Positions 19,110 to 23,678 of a stretch of DNA of 35,350 nucleotides are shown in pieces. The notes beneath the pieces are model-generated. The model searched no databases and was not told where the DNA came from. It saw only the letters and a list, made by a program, of their open reading frames with translations. The DNA is taken from assembly GCA_944364705.1 (NCBI GenBank), contig CALVWH010000003.1, forward strand, positions 1-35,350, read 5' to 3'. A program made the position numbers and the translations under genes. Source of the stretch: an uncultured Bacilli bacterium (GTDB taxonomy: Bacteria > Bacillota_I > Bacilli_A > RF39 > UBA660). Within the stretch, counting starts at the first letter, position 1. Every line of letters begins with the position of its first letter.

Positions 19110-22100
19110 GTGGAAAAAATTTCTTTAAATGAATTTTTGAAAATAAAAAATAGACTCCTCTCTTTAGAAACAAAAATAGAGAAAAAAGAGGAAGATTTAA
19201 AAACTTTAGAAGATCAATATTTTAAACTTCAACAACGTCTTCTTTCTTATGATTTAAGTGATATTCCTTTCGAAGCCTGGGAAGGAATACAAATCTTATC
19301 TTATGCAGATCATTGGATGGACTTTTCAAAAACAAAGGCAAACATTGATTTTTCAATCCTTGGATGCCTTGGATTTTGTAACTTTAAAGGATGTAACGTA
19401 AAAAATATAGAAAATCTACAGATGTTTTTAAAACCAGATTTCTTTGATGAAGAAACCATCAAAAAAAATGAACATTTATTTTTATCTGATATCTTTTCAA
19501 AAGAATTTAAAGAAAAATTTTATCAACATCAATTAACAATGGACGATCTTACTTCTTTATCTTTGATGCAAATTTCTGAGTTGAAAGAAAAGAAAGTAGA
19601 ACAACATTTTTCTTTTGAAAAAAATTATAGTAGAAATTTTTTGTTGCTTATCGGTATCGAAAAGGCTCGAAACCTTTATCTATTATCCAAAGAAACCTTC
19701 GAAACCTTAAATATTATTTTTGACCATTTTCAAATATATTTATTAGAAAAAAGCGACTTTAAAACAAACGTACAAAAGGTAGAAGTATCAGAAATGAAAA
19801 GTTTTTTCTTTGCTTCCCTTCGAGACTTAATCATCAATTCCTATATGACCTTGAATATTCAAAACTTTCCAGAAATGTTCCTTAAAGAAAATAAAGACCT
19901 ATTTTTAATAGAAAAACAAATTCCAGAAGAAGTAAAAGAAAGATATTACTTAAAAAAACTAACGTTAGAAGATCTTTCATATCTTTCTGAGTTTCCAGAT
20001 CTTCCGGTCGAAAACTTTGTAGAAGATGGTAGATTTCGAACTTTATCTGCTGCATTAGGATATGGAAATTTACAAAAAGCATTAAAAATAAATTTTAATA
20101 TTATAAAATATCTAATCAATACGAATAAAGTATATGATTTTTGTAATTTTTGTGATTCTATTTCTTTTAAAATGTTATCTAAGATAACTTTTGAACAAAA
20201 ATTTAATCAAGCAATAAAAGAATTTTTTCATATGCATAATACTTTAGAATCTTCCGAGGAACTTATGAACTACGATCCGTCGCTATTTCCATTAGAAGAA
20301 AATCAACGCCAAGTAATAGAACTTTTAACGCTTCCACATATCAAACAATTTGAAAAAGAAACAAATTTCTTTTTTCATAAGTCTTCAAATATGTTTGATG
20401 TCTTTTGCAAATATTATCTAAATAATTTTAATCAAATGCCAGAAGAAAACCTTTCCTATGACGATTTTCTAGAACTTATGGCTCAATGTATCGAAGCAAT
20501 GAAAGCATCAAACATTTTCACTATCGTACCAAACTATGATTGGATGGAAGGAAAATTTCGGGAAGATCATCCGGAGCTTTTTATCGATAAAAATGCTCCA
20601 GAAGAATTAAAAGGTGCCTTTTATAAAAATCAAATCACCCCAGATCTTTTACGAAACCATAAAGAATATATTCCTTATTTATTCGATAAAAATTTAGAAA
20701 CAACGATTAAAGTAAAATGGAATTTAACCTTTTCTATCGAAGGACAATACACTTGTTACACAAATTTTATTAGAGAATACGAAAAACGCTATGGAAAACA
20801 AAAACTCTTAAATTTATTAGTAGCTTACGGAGATTTACTATCAGATCTTTCCGTTTCCAACGAACATCAAGAAATCGAAAATGAAAAAGCTATTGAAAAA
20901 AATTTACAAGAAGCAATTTATCAAAAAATATTAAAAGAAAACGTCGATTATTCTTATTTAGAAACTTTAGATTCTTTTGTAAAAAAGTATCCAGATATAT
21001 TTTTAAACTTAGATTCTTTCGACTTTCCAGAAGAAGAAAAGTTACGCTTAAAAAAACGTTTTTATGAAAGAAAATTAACGTTCGAGGATATTTGGAAACA
21101 TCCAGAGTTAGTCTCTATCCTCGCTCATAAAAACTTAGAAATTCCGTTTTGGAATTTGTATCATATCCATTCTTATGATACTCCAGTTAATTTAAAAACA
21201 AATACCACTTTATTTTTAAAGAAGTTGAAAAAAGAAGAATTTTTAAATCTTTGTGCTTGCTACGGTCGATATCTAACCGATGTTCCGAATTTATCTTTTG
21301 AATTTAAAGAGAATTCCGAAGAAAATTTTCTTCTTTTAAAAAGAAAAATAGAATCTTATATCAAAAAAAGAAGTAGAAGCGGGGAAATATCTTATACGTT
21401 GGAAGATGCACCAGATTTTTTAAAAAAAGAATGTCCAGACTTATTTTTAGAAGAAAATGCACCAGAAGAGTTAAAAAAATACTTTTATAATAAAGACGAA
21501 AGATATCCGCTTAACTTTGTAATATTGCACAATCATCCAGAATGGATGCCATATCTAAAAGGAAAATCTATAAGTACTGCTTTATCTAGAGGATTAACGA
21601 TCAAAAACAACATGCAGAAATACTTTAACCTTTTTGGCGAAGAAACTGCCTTAAAATTAGGCCTTACAAAAGCAAATACGGTAACCAAAATGATTGATGA
21701 CGATCAAGTAGATTTAATGAAAAAATGGTATGATAAAACTGGACAAACGTTTTTACCAGATTATGTCGTGATGCAAACATTTCCAATCGATCAAGCCGAT
21801 AAGTTTTTAACATCTGGTAGACTATGGAGTAAACTCATGAACATTCAAAGCTTTTGTCAAACTGCAGAAGCAAGAGAAGCTACTCTAAAATTAGCATATT
21901 CGTTTGGTGCGTTTGATGCGGATCAAAGAGGATTTAAAAAATTAGAAGAATTATTAACTGGATTACCAAAACAAATTTCTTCCTCTTATGAACATGTGAT
22001 GAACAATGTAAAAAATAGGATCGAAGAAAACAAAGAATCTATGCAAAAATTCTTCAAAAAAGAAGAGGGAGAAAAAGAAATAAAATCGGATCTATTTTCC

Positions 22101-23678
22101 ATGTTCTATAAAAAACAAGGAGACAATTACACCTTAAAAATCAATCTCCAAGAGTATCCAAAAACATGTCAATATTTCCGATCATTCCTCGAACAATTTC
22201 CAGATTCTCCGGTCTTAACTCCGGAAAAAGCCCATCAACTTTTTGGAGGATTTTCTTTCCAATATGATCCAGATTTTCGAGAATTTCTCCTTTCAAATTT
22301 CAATCAAATATTAACACATCCAGAATATACAACGTACGTATCCGCAATGCAAAAACAATTTTCCATGATAAAAGCCATCAATAGCAATCGAAAATTAACC
22401 CTTGACTTAGCCCTTGCTTATGTACAAGAAAATAAATTTACTTCCGTGGACGTTGGAAACGAAGAAGTAGCAGAAATATCTGCCATCGCCGGATATACTC
22501 AAGAAGATTTTGATAAACTACAAGAAATTTATAATTATGGGAAACAAAGAATCTTTAGTAGTATCCCAAAAATAGAAAAAACAAAAGGAAAATATACGTA
22601 TGAAATGCTTAGACTAGATGATCCACTTGCTATGGCCATTGGAACACTTACCGACTGCTGTCAAGAGTTAGGAAATGCCGCAGAACTTTGTATGGAACAT
22701 AGTATGGTTGATAAACATGGAAGAGTCTTTGTCGTTCGCGATGATCAAGGAAATATCGCTGCTCAAAGCTGGGTATGGAGAAATAAAAATGTCATATGCT
22801 TTGATAACATTGAAATACCAGACAAAGCTTTTGTTCGAGCAATAAAAAACGATCCAGTATCCGGAGGAAAAGGCTTTGCAAAAGAAATTTATGACCTTTA
22901 TAAACAAGCAGCAAAAGATCTAATAAAAGAAGACGAAAAAGTTTATTATACCTTATTAGAACAAGGAAAAATCACACAAGAACAATACGAAGGATTAAAA
23001 CTTGGAAAAGTAACCGTCGGATTAGGATATAACGATATCGCTTCAGAAATTAAAAAAAGAAGTCCAGTAGATAACGGTATTTTGTCACATCCTCTACCTT
23101 TTAAAGAACCAGTAAAACTATCAAGAGGATTATACCAGACAGATTCAAATACCCAATATATTCTAGAAGAAACCGAAAGAAAACAAGACTATAATGGAGA
23201 TACTTTCGCCTTACATCAAGACCCTTACATAGAATATACCGATAAAAACTTTACCAAGAAAAACTTCTTAACCTTAGAAAAATTAGAACTCGAAACAAAA
23301 GGAGAAATTAAAAATTTAAATTTTTATTTTGAAAACGAACAAAAACCTTCCGTATCCGAAATTGCCGATGCTTATAATTTTAAACCAGAAAACACAAAAA
23401 TTGTGATGAATCCAAATTTCGCAATCATTTATGAAGAATCTGAAAATCAAATAAAACTTGGAGATTTCCTTTTCCATACAAAAATAAAAAAGGAAAAGCA
23501 ACAAATCGACATGAAAATGCAAGTAGAAATTCAAATTCGTTTGGCGCTAGAACAAATCGCGAATGGAAAAAACGTGGACATTACCGCTTTAAATGAAAAA
23601 CAAAAACAAATGTATGAACAAGTGATGAAATTAACTGAAGAAATCGATAGGGAAAGGGGACTTGGCCGTGCAAGATAA
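19110..23678 (+). CDS. Very large (1,522 aa) uncharacterised cytoplasmic protein with internal repeat modules
   Basis: 4.57-kb uninterrupted ORF. GTG start at 19110, with TGGTGG 6-7 nt upstream and an in-frame TAA at 19086. No signal peptide or TM segment seen. N-terminal heptad-like stretch. Five copies of PxLF..APEELK..FY..LT..DL. C-terminal region has DCCQELGNAAELCMEH followed by beta-strand-like segments. No family recognised. Confidence 0.85.
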   Translation: MEKISLNEFLKIKNRLLSLETKIEKKEEDLKTLEDQYFKLQQRLLSYDLSDIPFEAWEGIQILSYADHWMDFSKTKANIDFSILGCLGFCNFKGCNVKNIENLQMFLKPDFFDEETIKKNEHLFLSDIFSKEFKEKFYQHQLTMDDLTSLSLMQISELKEKKVEQHFSFEKNYSRNFLLLIGIEKARNLYLLSKETFETLNIIFDHFQIYLLEKSDFKTNVQKVEVSEMKSFFFASLRDLIINSYMTLNIQNFPEMFLKENKDLFLIEKQIPEEVKERYYLKKLTLEDLSYLSEFPDLPVENFVEDGRFRTLSAALGYGNLQKALKINFNIIKYLINTNKVYDFCNFCDSISFKMLSKITFEQKFNQAIKEFFHMHNTLESSEELMNYDPSLFPLEENQRQVIELLTLPHIKQFEKETNFFFHKSSNMFDVFCKYYLNNFNQMPEENLSYDDFLELMAQCIEAMKASNIFTIVPNYDWMEGKFREDHPELFIDKNAPEELKGAFYKNQITPDLLRNHKEYIPYLFDKNLETTIKVKWNLTFSIEGQYTCYTNFIREYEKRYGKQKLLNLLVAYGDLLSDLSVSNEHQEIENEKAIEKNLQEAIYQKILKENVDYSYLETLDSFVKKYPDIFLNLDSFDFPEEEKLRLKKRFYERKLTFEDIWKHPELVSILAHKNLEIPFWNLYHIHSYDTPVNLKTNTTLFLKKLKKEEFLNLCACYGRYLTDVPNLSFEFKENSEENFLLLKRKIESYIKKRSRSGEISYTLEDAPDFLKKECPDLFLEENAPEELKKYFYNKDERYPLNFVILHNHPEWMPYLKGKSISTALSRGLTIKNNMQKYFNLFGEETALKLGLTKANTVTKMIDDDQVDLMKKWYDKTGQTFLPDYVVMQTFPIDQADKFLTSGRLWSKLMNIQSFCQTAEAREATLKLAYSFGAFDADQRGFKKLEELLTGLPKQISSSYEHVMNNVKNRIEENKESMQKFFKKEEGEKEIKSDLFSMFYKKQGDNYTLKINLQEYPKTCQYFRSFLEQFPDSPVLTPEKAHQLFGGFSFQYDPDFREFLLSNFNQILTHPEYTTYVSAMQKQFSMIKAINSNRKLTLDLALAYVQENKFTSVDVGNEEVAEISAIAGYTQEDFDKLQEIYNYGKQRIFSSIPKIEKTKGKYTYEMLRLDDPLAMAIGTLTDCCQELGNAAELCMEHSMVDKHGRVFVVRDDQGNIAAQSWVWRNKNVICFDNIEIPDKAFVRAIKNDPVSGGKGFAKEIYDLYKQAAKDLIKEDEKVYYTLLEQGKITQEQYEGLKLGKVTVGLGYNDIASEIKKRSPVDNGILSHPLPFKEPVKLSRGLYQTDSNTQYILEETERKQDYNGDTFALHQDPYIEYTDKNFTKKNFLTLEKLELETKGEIKNLNFYFENEQKPSVSEIADAYNFKPENTKIVMNPNFAIIYEESENQIKLGDFLFHTKIKKEKQQIDMKMQVEIQIRLALEQIANGKNVDITALNEKQKQMYEQVMKLTEEIDRERGLGRAR

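What the first reader, a model, noticed from the sequence alone, without database searches (positions are those of the whole stretch)
19110..23678. Giant 1,522-aa ORF with five copies of a PxLF..APEELK..FY..LT..DL module and no recognisable family
This is a 4.57-kb uninterrupted ORF in a very AT-rich genome, where random ORFs are short, so it is almost certainly real. I see no signal peptide or TM segment. A ~30-aa module recurs five times at irregular spacing: HLFLSDIFSKEFKEKFYQHQLTMDDLTSL (19473-19560), KDLFLIEKQIPEEVKERYYLKKLTLEDLSYL (19893-19985), HPELFIDKNAPEELKGAFYKNQITPDLLRNH (20568-20660), YPDIFLNLDSFDFPEEEKLRLKKRFYERKLTFEDIWKH (20988-21101) and CPDLFLEENAPEELKKYFYNKDERYPLNFVILHNH (21432-21536). 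The N-terminus is heptad/coiled-coil-like. The C-terminal third (about nt 22600-23050) looks globular. It reads LDDPLAMAIGTLTDCCQELGNAAELCMEHSMVDKHGRVFVVRDDQGNIAAQSWVWRNKNVICFDNIE, followed by a GGKGFAKEIYDLYKQAA stretch. That stretch loosely recalls the beta-strand plus R/Q-x-x-G-x-G/A helix layout of GNAT-type acyltransferases; this is inference only. I cannot name a family for any part of the protein.
Basis: partly seen in the sequence, partly recalled or inferred. Interest (0 to 1): 0.75.

Follow-up and report, generated by a model that had tools for sequence, protein, structure and literature searches.

The report
Giant repeat protein, GNAT-like enzyme tail
The 1,522-residue ORF is a real cytoplasmic protein of a large, completely unannotated family in uncultured Firmicutes: five helical repeats carry a conserved enzyme-like tail, and the gene is almost always paired with a crippled copy of the proline enzyme ProA and can move between genomes.

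Summary
ORF 19110-23678 is intact and has more than 200 relatives, mostly full-length proteins of 1,300-1,800 aa. It has no signal peptide or TM segment and no Pfam, NCBIfam, PHROG, PADLOC or PDB-sequence match.

The five modules are real, but each is the core of a longer helical repeat of about 140 aa (profile-profile E 1e-8 to 1e-28). Copy number ranges from 1 to 7 across relatives.

The conserved part is the C-terminal 680 aa (AF2 pLDDT 91): a helical domain plus two alpha/beta domains with GNAT strand-helix order. All top-50 Foldseek PDB hits are GNAT acetyltransferases, but weakly (best E 0.014). The invariant residues are SSIPR, C-C-Q, M-x-H-S, Q-S-W-x-W-R-N and C-F-D-N-x-E. This module defines about 2,400 clusters at 50% identity, and some members carry BspA-LRR or DUF4116 repeats instead.

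The downstream gene is a ProA homolog lacking the catalytic-Cys segment. It overlaps the giant gene and follows a giant gene in 8 of the 9 loci where the downstream gene could be read. The pair occurs in unrelated contexts, in tandem arrays of at least 6 giants, and once on a serine-recombinase element.

Best reading: a mobile two-gene cassette encoding a modular transferase-like enzyme with an atypical Cys-centred GNAT-like site. The function is unproven.

The parts
18887..18909 (+). Terminator-like hairpin (AAGCACAATTGTGCTT plus a T-run) that closes the rpoA-rplQ ribosomal operon. The giant gene therefore starts a separate transcription unit.
   Evidence: I16
19110..23678 (+). Giant gene, 1,522 aa, GTG start, GGTGG Shine-Dalgarno-like site 6 nt upstream. 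Cytoplasmic, with no TM segment or signal peptide.
19110..19244 (+). aa 1-45: N-terminal antiparallel helical (coiled-coil-like) hairpin.
   Evidence: AF2 model, helices 6-25 and 30-45
19245..19409 (+). aa 46-100: short beta-solenoid-like region with conserved YDLSDIPFEEW, DFSKTxANIDF and NFKGCN motifs (LRR- or pentapeptide-like).
   Evidence: short strands at 61-98 in the AF2 model; conservation
19374..19637 (+). Helical repeat unit 1, core module (aa 89-176).
   Evidence: module HMM E 9e-18; hhalign
19824..20024 (+). Helical repeat unit 2, core module (aa 239-305).
20517..20744 (+). Helical repeat unit 3, core module (aa 470-545).
20928..21176 (+). Helical repeat unit 4, core module (aa 607-689).
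21378..21620 (+). Helical repeat unit 5, core module (aa 757-837).
21627..22559 (+). aa 840-1150: strongly conserved all-helical domain (WYDKTGxKFIPD, RDAMLKLAYSFGAFD, AHxLFGGF, YDPDFREF). It is not a further copy of the repeat.
22575..23171 (+). aa 1156-1354: alpha/beta domain D1 with GNAT-like strand-helix order. It carries the invariant residues and is the putative catalytic domain.
22656..22814 (+). aa 1183-1235: signature core C-C-Q ... M-E-H-S ... G-R-V-F ... Q-S-W-V-W-R-N ... C-F-D-N-I-E. C1184, H1197, W1221, W1223, R1224, C1230, F1231, D1232 and E1235 stay invariant even in the most diverse set.
23256..23654 (+). aa 1383-1515: second GNAT-like alpha/beta domain D2 (NPNFAIIY, QxxLALxQI). 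It has no detectable sequence similarity to D1.
23650..23660 (+). Shine-Dalgarno-like GGGAAAGGGGA for the partner gene. It lies inside the giant gene's conserved C-terminal '..RERG..' codons, which suggests translational coupling.
23668..24681 (+). Partner gene. The ORF list starts it at TTG 23662, but GTG 23668 gives MQDNIS.., matching homologs, and an 11-nt overlap with the giant gene. It is ProA-like (gamma-glutamyl-phosphate-reductase-like) and lacks the roughly 80-aa segment that holds the catalytic Cys.

Best explanation
The giant gene and the overlapping ProA-like gene form one accessory, horizontally mobile two-gene cassette. What is shown: the giant protein is cytoplasmic and modular. 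It has an N-terminal helical hairpin and a short beta-solenoid, then a variable arm of about 140-aa helical repeats (five here, 1-7 in relatives, replaced by BspA-type LRR or DUF4116 repeats in distant relatives). These precede a conserved 680-aa C-terminal module: a helical domain plus two GNAT-like alpha/beta domains. What is inferred: the C-terminal module is an enzyme. Its active site would lie where GNAT enzymes have theirs (a1-a2 loop, a2, b4 and the b4-a3 loop), but it is built from an atypical invariant set: Cys1184-Gln, His1197, Gln-Ser-Trp-x-Trp-Arg-Asn, and Cys1230-Phe-Asp-Asn-x-Glu. I think the most likely chemistry is group transfer (acyl or a related group), possibly through a covalent Cys intermediate, onto a macromolecular target that the repeat arm selects. 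The ProA-derived partner keeps the Rossmann-type N-terminal domain but has lost the catalytic-Cys segment. I infer that it acts as a non-catalytic subunit for nucleotide binding, docking or regulation, made in step with the giant protein through translational coupling. The biological role is probably in conflict or interaction (effector or defence) rather than housekeeping.
For: Real and conserved: 232 hits, the best 120 being mostly 1,300-1,800 aa and many aligning over the full length, at 35-49% identity where the full length aligns. The C half is far more conserved than the N half. Fold: AF2 pLDDT 90.7 and pTM 0.85, with GNAT order of strands and helices twice. All top-50 PDB Foldseek hits are GNATs, led by tandem-GNAT proteins (VipF, 3tt2, Eis-like 3n7z and 2hv2) aligned over about 300-350 columns. 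In BFVD, GNATs and 'PcfJ-like' proteins follow one uncharacterised phage protein at E 3.5e-11. Enzyme-like conservation: invariant polar and nucleophilic residues persist in relatives down to E about 1e-52 and in a 37-sequence diverse set. The module defines 2,429 clusters at 50% identity with E<=1e-3. Module swapping: LRR_5 in two members and DUF4116 in one; repeat number 1-7. In a tandem array the paralogs are 62-73% identical in the C domain but 36-56% in the N arm. Partner: NCBIfam proA E 7e-25 but 88 bits against a cut-off of 317. The PDB ProA alignment skips residues 259-338 of yeast GPR, and seven partner sequences share no invariant Cys. The partner follows a giant gene in the window and in L001, L002, L005, L010, L011, L013 and L014. 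The overlap is 4-17 nt in six of these; in L001 the tblastn matches abut, and in L013 there is a 249-nt gap. The partner's Shine-Dalgarno-like site lies inside the giant gene's conserved tail. Mobility: the flanks differ in every locus. In L014 a 10.5-kb insert with a large serine recombinase, the giant gene and the partner splits an ABC ATPase gene between LSGGMRQRV and ALIRTLAIKPDILLLDEPFSALD.
Against: No structural match is statistically significant (best PDB E 0.014, TM at most 0.42 normalised by target length). No GNAT or other sequence profile matches. The canonical CoA pyrophosphate-binding motif is absent, so acyl-CoA use is unsupported. I could not inspect model coordinates, so clustering of the invariant residues in one pocket is inferred from GNAT topology only. 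The Cys/His set could instead bind a structural metal. No known secretion, defence or toxin domain was found. The partner is absent downstream of one distant relative (L009). There is no experimental or expression evidence.
Confidence: 0.4

Rival explanations
1. Toxin or effector with an immunity or chaperone partner. The giant protein is exported or delivered by an unrecognised route and modifies a target in another cell. The ProA-like protein neutralises or chaperones it in the producer.
For: It is a two-gene cassette with an overlapping small partner. It is mobile and can be amplified in tandem. The repeat arms (LRR_5, DUF4116, helical repeats) resemble those of host- or cell-interaction proteins. 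The N-terminal helical hairpin loosely recalls T7SS substrates.
Against: There is no signal peptide, TM segment, LXG, RHS or other trafficking domain. The C-terminal module is the conserved part and the N arm the variable part, which is the reverse of polymorphic toxins. Six giant genes share a single partner in L011. A pseudo-dehydrogenase of about 340 aa is unlike known immunity proteins.
Confidence: 0.15
2. Anti-phage or anti-mobile-element defence system. The repeat arm senses an invader component and the GNAT-like module executes the response, assisted by the ProA-like subunit.
For: The gene is accessory, context-independent and carried on a recombinase element. Paralog arrays have diversified sensor-like arms. 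Fold neighbours include PcfJ-like proteins of phages, and PcfJ itself is encoded on the conjugative plasmid pCF10, next to an AcrIIA9-family gene. Distant homologs exist in phages: the BFVD hit at E 3.5e-11 and Microcystis phage ORF68L.
Against: There is no PADLOC match. There is no NTPase or known effector domain. Neighbours are mostly ordinary metabolic or housekeeping genes rather than defence islands. No members were found in IMG/VR or PLSDB.
Confidence: 0.15
3. Non-enzymatic structural or scaffolding protein, for example a cytoskeletal or organising element. The GNAT-like domains would be degenerate binding modules, and the conserved Cys and His residues would hold a structural metal.
For: The protein is very large, mostly helical, repeat-rich and cytoplasmic. 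The canonical CoA-binding motif is missing. The third Cys of the cluster (C1194) and C1183 are replaceable. In the window the gene sits beside the ribosomal operon.
Against: About 15 polar residues are strictly invariant across very divergent relatives, including a Gln-Ser-Trp-x-Trp-Arg-Asn strand and Cys-Phe-Asp-Asn-x-Glu. That pattern is more typical of catalysis than of scaffolding. The position next to the ribosomal operon is unique to this window. Mobility and tandem amplification do not fit a core structural role.
Confidence: 0.15
4. Biosynthetic pair. The ProA-like protein performs an NADPH-dependent reduction and the giant protein acylates or condenses a small molecule or envelope component.
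For: The partner is homologous to gamma-glutamyl phosphate reductase over its dinucleotide-binding part. An SDR gene follows in the window, and a distant SDR lies nearby in L001.
Against: The catalytic-Cys segment of ProA is deleted, and no alternative Cys is conserved. No other biosynthetic genes are conserved nearby. A 900-aa variable repeat arm has no obvious use for small-molecule chemistry.
Confidence: 0.05

Closest known systems
Tandem-GNAT acyltransferases (Legionella VipF 7wx5, Eis-like 3n7z and 2hv2, 3tt2) and single-domain GNATs (GCN5, SpeG, NatD)
   Same: The predicted order of strands and helices matches in two consecutive alpha/beta domains. These proteins fill the whole top-50 of the Foldseek PDB list, and the tandem-GNAT proteins align over about 300-350 columns. 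The invariant residues lie where GNAT active sites lie (a1-a2 loop, a2, b4, b4-a3 loop); this last point is inference.
   Different: No match is significant (E at least 0.014). No GNAT sequence profile matches. The Q/R-x-x-G-x-G/A CoA-binding loop is replaced by the invariant C-F-D-N-I-E-I-P. There are two invariant Cys residues. The module is preceded by a 310-aa conserved helical domain and an 840-aa repeat arm.
PcfJ-like domain (Pfam PF14284; pCF10 PcfJ and homologs found in 278 Firmicute phage records)
   Same: Foldseek BFVD hits to proteins named 'PcfJ-like' rank just below the top hit (E 3.4e-3 to 0.4). By eye, the motifs run in parallel: H-C-V...G-K-x-x-I-V-F-I-R-R...Y-R-N-x-x-V-I-Q-I-Q-G in PcfJ against M-E-H-S...G-R-V-F-V-V-R-D...W-R-N-x-x-V-I-C-F-D-N here. 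Both families are uncharacterised and linked to mobile DNA.
   Different: Pfam PF14284 never matches. Profile-profile comparison with 10 diverse PcfJ-like domains gives probability 0.06% and E 0.74. The HCV motif is absent, and the CCQ and CFDNxE motifs are absent from PcfJ.
Gamma-glutamyl phosphate reductase ProA (ALDH superfamily), for the partner gene
   Same: The partner is homologous over ProA profile positions 28-234 and over the C-terminal 'AIxHINxxGSxHxxxIxT' region.
   Different: It scores 88 bits against the family cut-off of 317. The roughly 80 residues between yeast GPR positions 258 and 339, where the catalytic Cys lies (from established knowledge of ProA), are missing. Seven partner sequences have no invariant Cys. 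No proB or proC gene lies beside it.
Modular 'repeat arm plus catalytic domain' bacterial effectors (for example LRR-NEL IpaH/SspH, or the beta-helix plus HECT-like SopA/NleL); analogy from my own knowledge
   Same: A variable repeat region is fused to a conserved C-terminal domain with an invariant Cys. Distant relatives use LRRs as the arm.
   Different: There is no sequence or fold relationship and no known secretion system or signal. The catalytic-like fold here is alpha/beta and GNAT-like, not all-helical NEL or HECT-like.

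Membership tests
GNAT (acyl-CoA N-acyltransferase) superfamily | Mixed alpha/beta fold with order b1-a1-a2-b2-b3-b4-a3-b5-a4-b6 | tested here: met
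   AF2 model (pLDDT 90.7), in fragment numbering, which is full-protein numbering minus 839: E323-327, H334-341, H353-361, E365-371, E377-386, E389-392, H399-445, E461-465, H472-478, E510-515. A second, similar domain lies at 544-667.
GNAT (acyl-CoA N-acyltransferase) superfamily | Statistically significant structural match to solved GNATs | tested here: inconclusive
   All top-50 Foldseek PDB hits are GNATs, but the best E is 0.014, none reaches E<=1e-3, and TM normalised by target length is at most 0.42. GNAT hits in BFVD have E 0.03-0.8.
GNAT (acyl-CoA N-acyltransferase) superfamily | Motif A, Q/R-x-x-G-x-G/A, in the b4-a3 loop (CoA pyrophosphate binding) | tested here: not met
   The loop is the invariant CFDNIEIPxK. 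The window's GGKG aligns with GRK, RNQ, REE or gaps in homologs.
GNAT (acyl-CoA N-acyltransferase) superfamily | Match to a GNAT sequence profile (Pfam Acetyltransf_*, NCBIfam) | tested here: not met
   There is no hit for the whole protein at E<=1 or for 12 domain sequences at E<=10. A PDB profile search found no GNAT.
GNAT (acyl-CoA N-acyltransferase) superfamily | Acyl-CoA binding and acyl transfer | not testable with these tools
   This needs biochemistry or a ligand-bound structure.
PcfJ-like (PF14284) | Match to the Pfam PcfJ model | tested here: not met
   There is no hit in the window protein or in 12 + 8 + 37 relatives. True PcfJ homologs carry PF14284.
PcfJ-like (PF14284) | Profile-profile similarity to PcfJ-like domains, and the conserved H-C-V motif | tested here: not met
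   hhalign gives probability 0.06-0.11% and E 0.5-0.74. The motif here is M-E-H-S, not H-C-V.
PcfJ-like (PF14284) | Fold similarity | tested here: inconclusive
   Foldseek BFVD hits to 'PcfJ-like protein' entries: E 3.4e-3 (prob 0.87), 0.031, 0.036 and 0.41.
ProA / gamma-glutamyl phosphate reductase (partner gene) | Score at or above the curated family cut-off | tested here: not met
   TIGR00407 gives 87.7 bits against 317.45; NF001221 gives 78.8 against 289.
ProA / gamma-glutamyl phosphate reductase (partner gene) | Catalytic cysteine segment present | tested here: not met
   Alignments cover yeast GPR 96-258 and 339-397, and 8zok (423 aa, species not shown by the tool) 106-244 and 316-370. 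The segment in between is replaced by about 11 residues. Seven partner sequences have no invariant Cys. That the catalytic Cys lies in that segment comes from prior knowledge of ProA.
ProA / gamma-glutamyl phosphate reductase (partner gene) | Homologous N-terminal dinucleotide-binding domain | tested here: met
   Partner residues 30-229 align to proA profile positions 28-234, E 7e-25.
Polymorphic toxin / immunity pairs | N-terminal trafficking or secretion domain and a variable C-terminal toxin domain | tested here: not met
   There is no Pfam trafficking domain, signal peptide or TM segment. The C-terminus is the most conserved part and the N arm the variable part.
Known anti-phage defence systems (PADLOC-DB 2.0) | Match to a defence-system protein model | tested here: not met
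   There are no families for either the giant protein or the partner at E<=1.

The most novel reading that the evidence does not exclude
The giant protein and its ProA-derived pseudoenzyme form a previously unrecognised class of mobile two-component system in Firmicutes, either an effector or an immune system. Its catalytic domain would be a new enzyme family: a GNAT-like scaffold rebuilt around a Cys-Gln / His / Cys-Phe-Asp-Asn-x-Glu centre, using chemistry or a donor not seen in GNATs. Interchangeable repeat arms (helical modules, BspA-LRR, DUF4116) would set target specificity.
Probability: 0.25. Interest if true: 0.8.

Novelty: new variant of a known kind. Interest (0 to 1): 0.6.

Why it matters
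The conserved C-terminal module defines about 2,400 clusters at 50% identity (253 at E<=1e-30). None of the members examined has a name or Pfam domain. The proteins are very large, come mostly from uncultured Firmicute and Bacilli MAGs, and can occupy about 27 kb as tandem arrays. If the module is an enzyme, its invariant Cys-centred site on a GNAT-like scaffold would be a new catalytic solution. The obligate pairing with a catalytically dead ProA would be a clear case of a metabolic enzyme recruited as a subunit. The cassette's mobility and its swappable repeat arms suggest a role in cell-cell or cell-parasite interaction that current defence and effector catalogues miss. The family is a well-defined target for structure determination and heterologous assays.

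Tried and rejected
1. Direct family assignment failed. Pfam, NCBIfam, PADLOC, PHROGs and PDB sequences gave nothing for the whole protein, the domain alone, or family profiles.

3. PcfJ-like membership was followed up after the BFVD hits. I fetched pCF10 PcfJ, 20 close homologs and 9 diverse phage PcfJ-like domains. Three hhalign tests were all negative.

4. Foldseek of the N-terminal 872 aa found only generic alpha-solenoid noise, E>0.4.

5. No sixth repeat copy lies in the conserved helical domain (aa 880-1150) or in the N-terminal 110 aa.

6. D1 and D2 are not a detectable internal duplication.

7. Phage or plasmid origin was not supported. There were no PLSDB hits and no IMG/VR loci. The only phage hit was Microcystis phage ORF68L, which matched over 84 residues (aa 18-101 of the domain query). 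A search seeded with that phage protein found one homolog only.

8. No riboswitch or leader RNA lies upstream.

9. No flanking direct or inverted repeats mark an insertion in the window.

10. Source names for distant relatives returned none.

An alignment query would have been better.

12. Literature searches for PcfJ and for giant proteins gave nothing useful.

Full report

The ORF 19110-23678 (+ strand, GTG start, 1,522 aa) is in the window as described. It follows rpoA (17540-18517) and rplQ (18535-18888). A terminator-like hairpin with a T-run at 18887-18909 separates it from that operon, followed by a 220-nt leader and a GGTGG site 6 nt before the GTG. Homologs begin with the same residues, so the start codon is right. 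No 19-residue window is hydrophobic enough for a TM segment or signal peptide; the maximum Kyte-Doolittle mean is 1.07.

Within this sequence alone, unit-versus-unit local alignment scores lie 3.0-14.1 SD above 300 shuffles. With family profiles, every pair of non-overlapping units matches at E 1.6e-8 to 3.7e-28 over 68-125 columns. An HMM of the module finds exactly five copies. The DNA copies are only 78-94% identical over 16-36 nt, so the duplication is old.

**2. Is it a known family?**

No. Pfam, NCBIfam, PDB sequences, PADLOC and PHROGs give nothing for the whole protein. Family profiles against PDB sequences also give nothing.

The protein is nevertheless far from an orphan. The word-indexed search returned 232 relatives. 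The best 120 are mostly 1,300-1,800 aa (all but two exceed 1,250 aa), and many align over the full length. Those that do are 35-49% identical to the window protein, apart from one hit at 99%. None has a Pfam domain, and the few with names are 'hypothetical protein' from Firmicutes or Bacilli MAGs. None is fragmented in a way that suggests a pseudogene.

**3. Anatomy**

Conservation is uneven. The N half (aa 1-840) has mean top-residue frequencies of 0.3-0.7, and the C half (aa 840-1522) mostly 0.65-0.86.

The AF2 model of aa 1-872 (pLDDT 89.7) shows a helical hairpin (aa 6-45), a short beta-solenoid-like stretch (about aa 46-100), and then helical repeats. It has no structural neighbour in the PDB; the best E is 0.43.

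The AF2 model of aa 840-1522 (pLDDT 90.7, pTM 0.85) has three parts:
- an all-helical domain, aa 840-1150;
- an alpha/beta domain D1, aa 1156-1354, with the order b1-a1-a2-b2-b3-b4-a3-b5-a4-b6;
- a second alpha/beta domain D2, aa 1383-1515.

Foldseek against the PDB finds nothing at E<=1e-3. Even so, all 50 best hits are GNAT acetyltransferases. The list is led by tandem-GNAT proteins (VipF at E 0.014, 3tt2, Eis-like 3n7z and 2hv2) that align over about 300-350 columns.

Foldseek against BFVD gives one uncharacterised phage protein at E 3.5e-11 over 559 columns. Below it come several 'PcfJ-like' phage proteins (E 3.4e-3 to 0.4) and many GNATs.

**4. The conserved signature**

In 54 family members the invariant residues of D1 are C1184, Q1185, H1197, S1198, G1204, R1205, F1207, Q1219-S-W-x-W-R1224, C1230-F-D-N-x-E1235 and P1237. 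By GNAT topology these fall in the a1-a2 loop, a2, b2, b3, b4 and the b4-a3 loop. That is where GNAT enzymes bind substrate and the acyl donor; this placement is inference, because I could not read the coordinates.

The canonical Q/R-x-x-G-x-G/A loop is replaced by the invariant CFDNIEIP.

An exhaustive HMMER search with the C-terminal domain profile found 2,429 clusters at 50% identity with E<=1e-3. Of these, 976 have E<=1e-10 and 253 have E<=1e-30. Members at E about 1e-52 still keep SSIPR/TIPP, LRxDDP, CCQ, MxHS, QSWxWRN, CFDN[IV]E and VTxGxGxxD.

A Microcystis phage protein keeps CCQ, QSWTW and CFDN but not MEHS.

**5. Variable arm, constant module**

Relatives longer than 1,200 aa carry 1-7 copies of the helical module, with a mode of 5. 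Some distant relatives have no such module and instead carry BspA-type LRRs (two members) or DUF4116 repeats (one member).

In one metagenomic contig at least six giant paralogs (1,333-1,615 aa) lie head to tail. The five complete paralogs are 62-73% identical in the C domain but only 36-56% in the N arm.

**6. The partner**

The downstream ORF was listed from TTG 23662. GTG 23668 is more likely, because it gives MQDNIS.. as in homologs and an 11-nt overlap with the giant gene. Its Shine-Dalgarno-like GGGAAAGGGGA lies inside the giant gene's conserved '..RERG..' tail.

It is homologous to ProA (TIGR00407 E 7e-25) but scores 88 bits against a cut-off of 317. Alignments to solved ProA structures cover residues 96-258 and 339-397 of yeast GPR. 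The intervening segment, which holds the catalytic cysteine in ProA (established knowledge), is reduced to about 11 residues. Seven partner sequences share no invariant Cys.

A partner follows a giant gene in the window and in L001, L002, L005, L010, L011, L013 and L014:
- In six of these eight loci the overlap is 4-17 nt. In L001 the tblastn matches abut, and in L013 there is a 249-nt gap.
- In L010 the giant gene is a relative whose C domain matches at only E about 1e-52.
- In L011 one partner closes the six-gene array.

One distant relative (L009) lacks the partner. In L008 the downstream ORF is cut by the contig end and could not be judged.

**7. Mobility**

Apart from the partner, no neighbour is shared between loci, and the position after rplQ is unique to this window.

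In L014 an ABC-transporter ATPase gene is split between '...LSGGMRQRV' and 'ALIRTLAIKPDILLLDEPFSALD...' by an insert of about 10.5 kb. The insert contains a large serine recombinase, a few small ORFs, the giant gene and its partner. There the pair is the main cargo of an integrative element.

No members were found in PLSDB plasmids or IMG/VR contigs, and the window shows no flanking repeats.

**8. Interpretation**

Shown:
- a real, conserved, cytoplasmic, modular protein;
- a true repeat of about 140 aa;
- a conserved C-terminal module with tandem GNAT-like topology and an unusual invariant residue set;
- a conserved, overlapping ProA-like partner without the catalytic segment;
- variable genomic context, tandem amplification, and one clear case of carriage on a mobile element.

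Inferred:
- the C-terminal module is a transferase-type enzyme with a Cys-centred site;
- the repeat arm selects a macromolecular target;
- the partner is a non-catalytic subunit;
- the role lies in conflict or interaction rather than housekeeping.

I put 0.4 on this package. The rivals are a toxin-immunity pair, a defence system, a purely structural protein and a biosynthetic pair. None is excluded; their specific weaknesses are listed with each rival.

**9. Comparison with known families**

The module works most like, and looks most like, tandem-GNAT enzymes. Of the four testable GNAT criteria only the fold order is met: the structural match is inconclusive, and motif A and a profile match are not met. 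I therefore do not file it as a GNAT family member.

PcfJ-like (PF14284) is the other fold neighbour, and by eye its motifs run in parallel. However, the Pfam model and three profile-profile tests are negative.

The partner is a ProA homolog but not a ProA.

**10. Verdict**

This is an unannotated, widespread family with a distinctive architecture and a conserved pseudoenzyme partner. Its function is still unknown, and the family offers clear, testable hypotheses.

Noticed in passing
L011:1-24656 (ENA ERZ28653768 scaffold_123): A tandem array of at least six giant paralogs (1,586-aa partial, then 1,333, 1,433, 1,615, 1,338 and 1,592 aa), separated by 14-18 nt and closed by a single 329-aa ProA-like partner. 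That is more than 23 kb of one gene family.
   Followed up: partly
L014:5996-16478: An insert of about 10.5 kb carries a large serine recombinase (6078-7691, minus strand), small ORFs, the giant gene and its partner. It splits an ABC ATPase gene between the signature motif (LSGGMRQRV) and the region leading to Walker B (ALIRTL..LLLDEP). AGAGT-like bases occur at both junctions.
   Followed up: partly
window:25910-29486: Two ABC ATPase genes with weak ABC_tran scores (1e-12 and 6e-7), in the position where ecfA1 and ecfA2 usually sit, are followed directly by truA with no ecfT-like gene between them. After truA comes a 406-aa ORF (28266-29486) with no Pfam match.
   Followed up: no
window:24776-25528: An SDR-family gene lies between the partner and the ABC ATPase genes. 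L001 has a 35%-identical SDR about 3.4 kb downstream of its partner, on the other strand. No other locus has one, so it is probably not part of the cassette.
   Followed up: partly
L001 (JBLNAG010000002.1): The only genome contigs locus, which carries a giant gene plus partner, is titled 'Ignavibacteriales bacterium MAG183'. All other named relatives are from Firmicutes or Bacilli MAGs. This could be mis-binning or a transfer.
   Followed up: no
L013:3885-25619: In a more distant subfamily the order is giant (1,872 aa), partner (383 aa), then giants of 1,305, 1,222 and at least 1,615 aa. Upstream are a 1,096-aa RCC1/WD40_RLD repeat protein and two unannotated proteins of about 440 aa.
   Followed up: no
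L012:1573-3666 (Microcystis phage MaMV-DC ORF68L): A 697-aa cyanophage hypothetical protein carries the core signature (TKCCQ, IIAQSWTWIN, LCFDNCE) but lacks the MEHS histidine motif. It has no Pfam match.
   Followed up: partly
L015:10874-12984 (pCF10): pcfJ (PcfJ domain protein) overlaps by 10 nt a gene annotated as a Cas9 inhibitor of the AcrIIA9 family, and it lies near DpnD/PcfM. PcfJ-like domains occur in 278 phage records, mostly Herelleviridae of Bacillus, Listeria and Enterococcus.
   Followed up: partly
aa 1281-1296 of the giant protein (window about 22950-22997): The conserved 'GKITQEQYxGL' helix inserted between a3 and b5 of D1 gives weak SHOCT (PF09851) hits in 6 of 12 family members (best E 0.008). 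It may be a small oligomerisation motif.
   Followed up: no
window:19001-28000: GC skew falls from about +0.2 across the ribosomal operon to about 0, and GC from about 0.33 to 0.26-0.34 (mostly 0.26-0.30), starting at the giant gene and continuing well past the cassette. The shift does not delimit an island.
   Followed up: no
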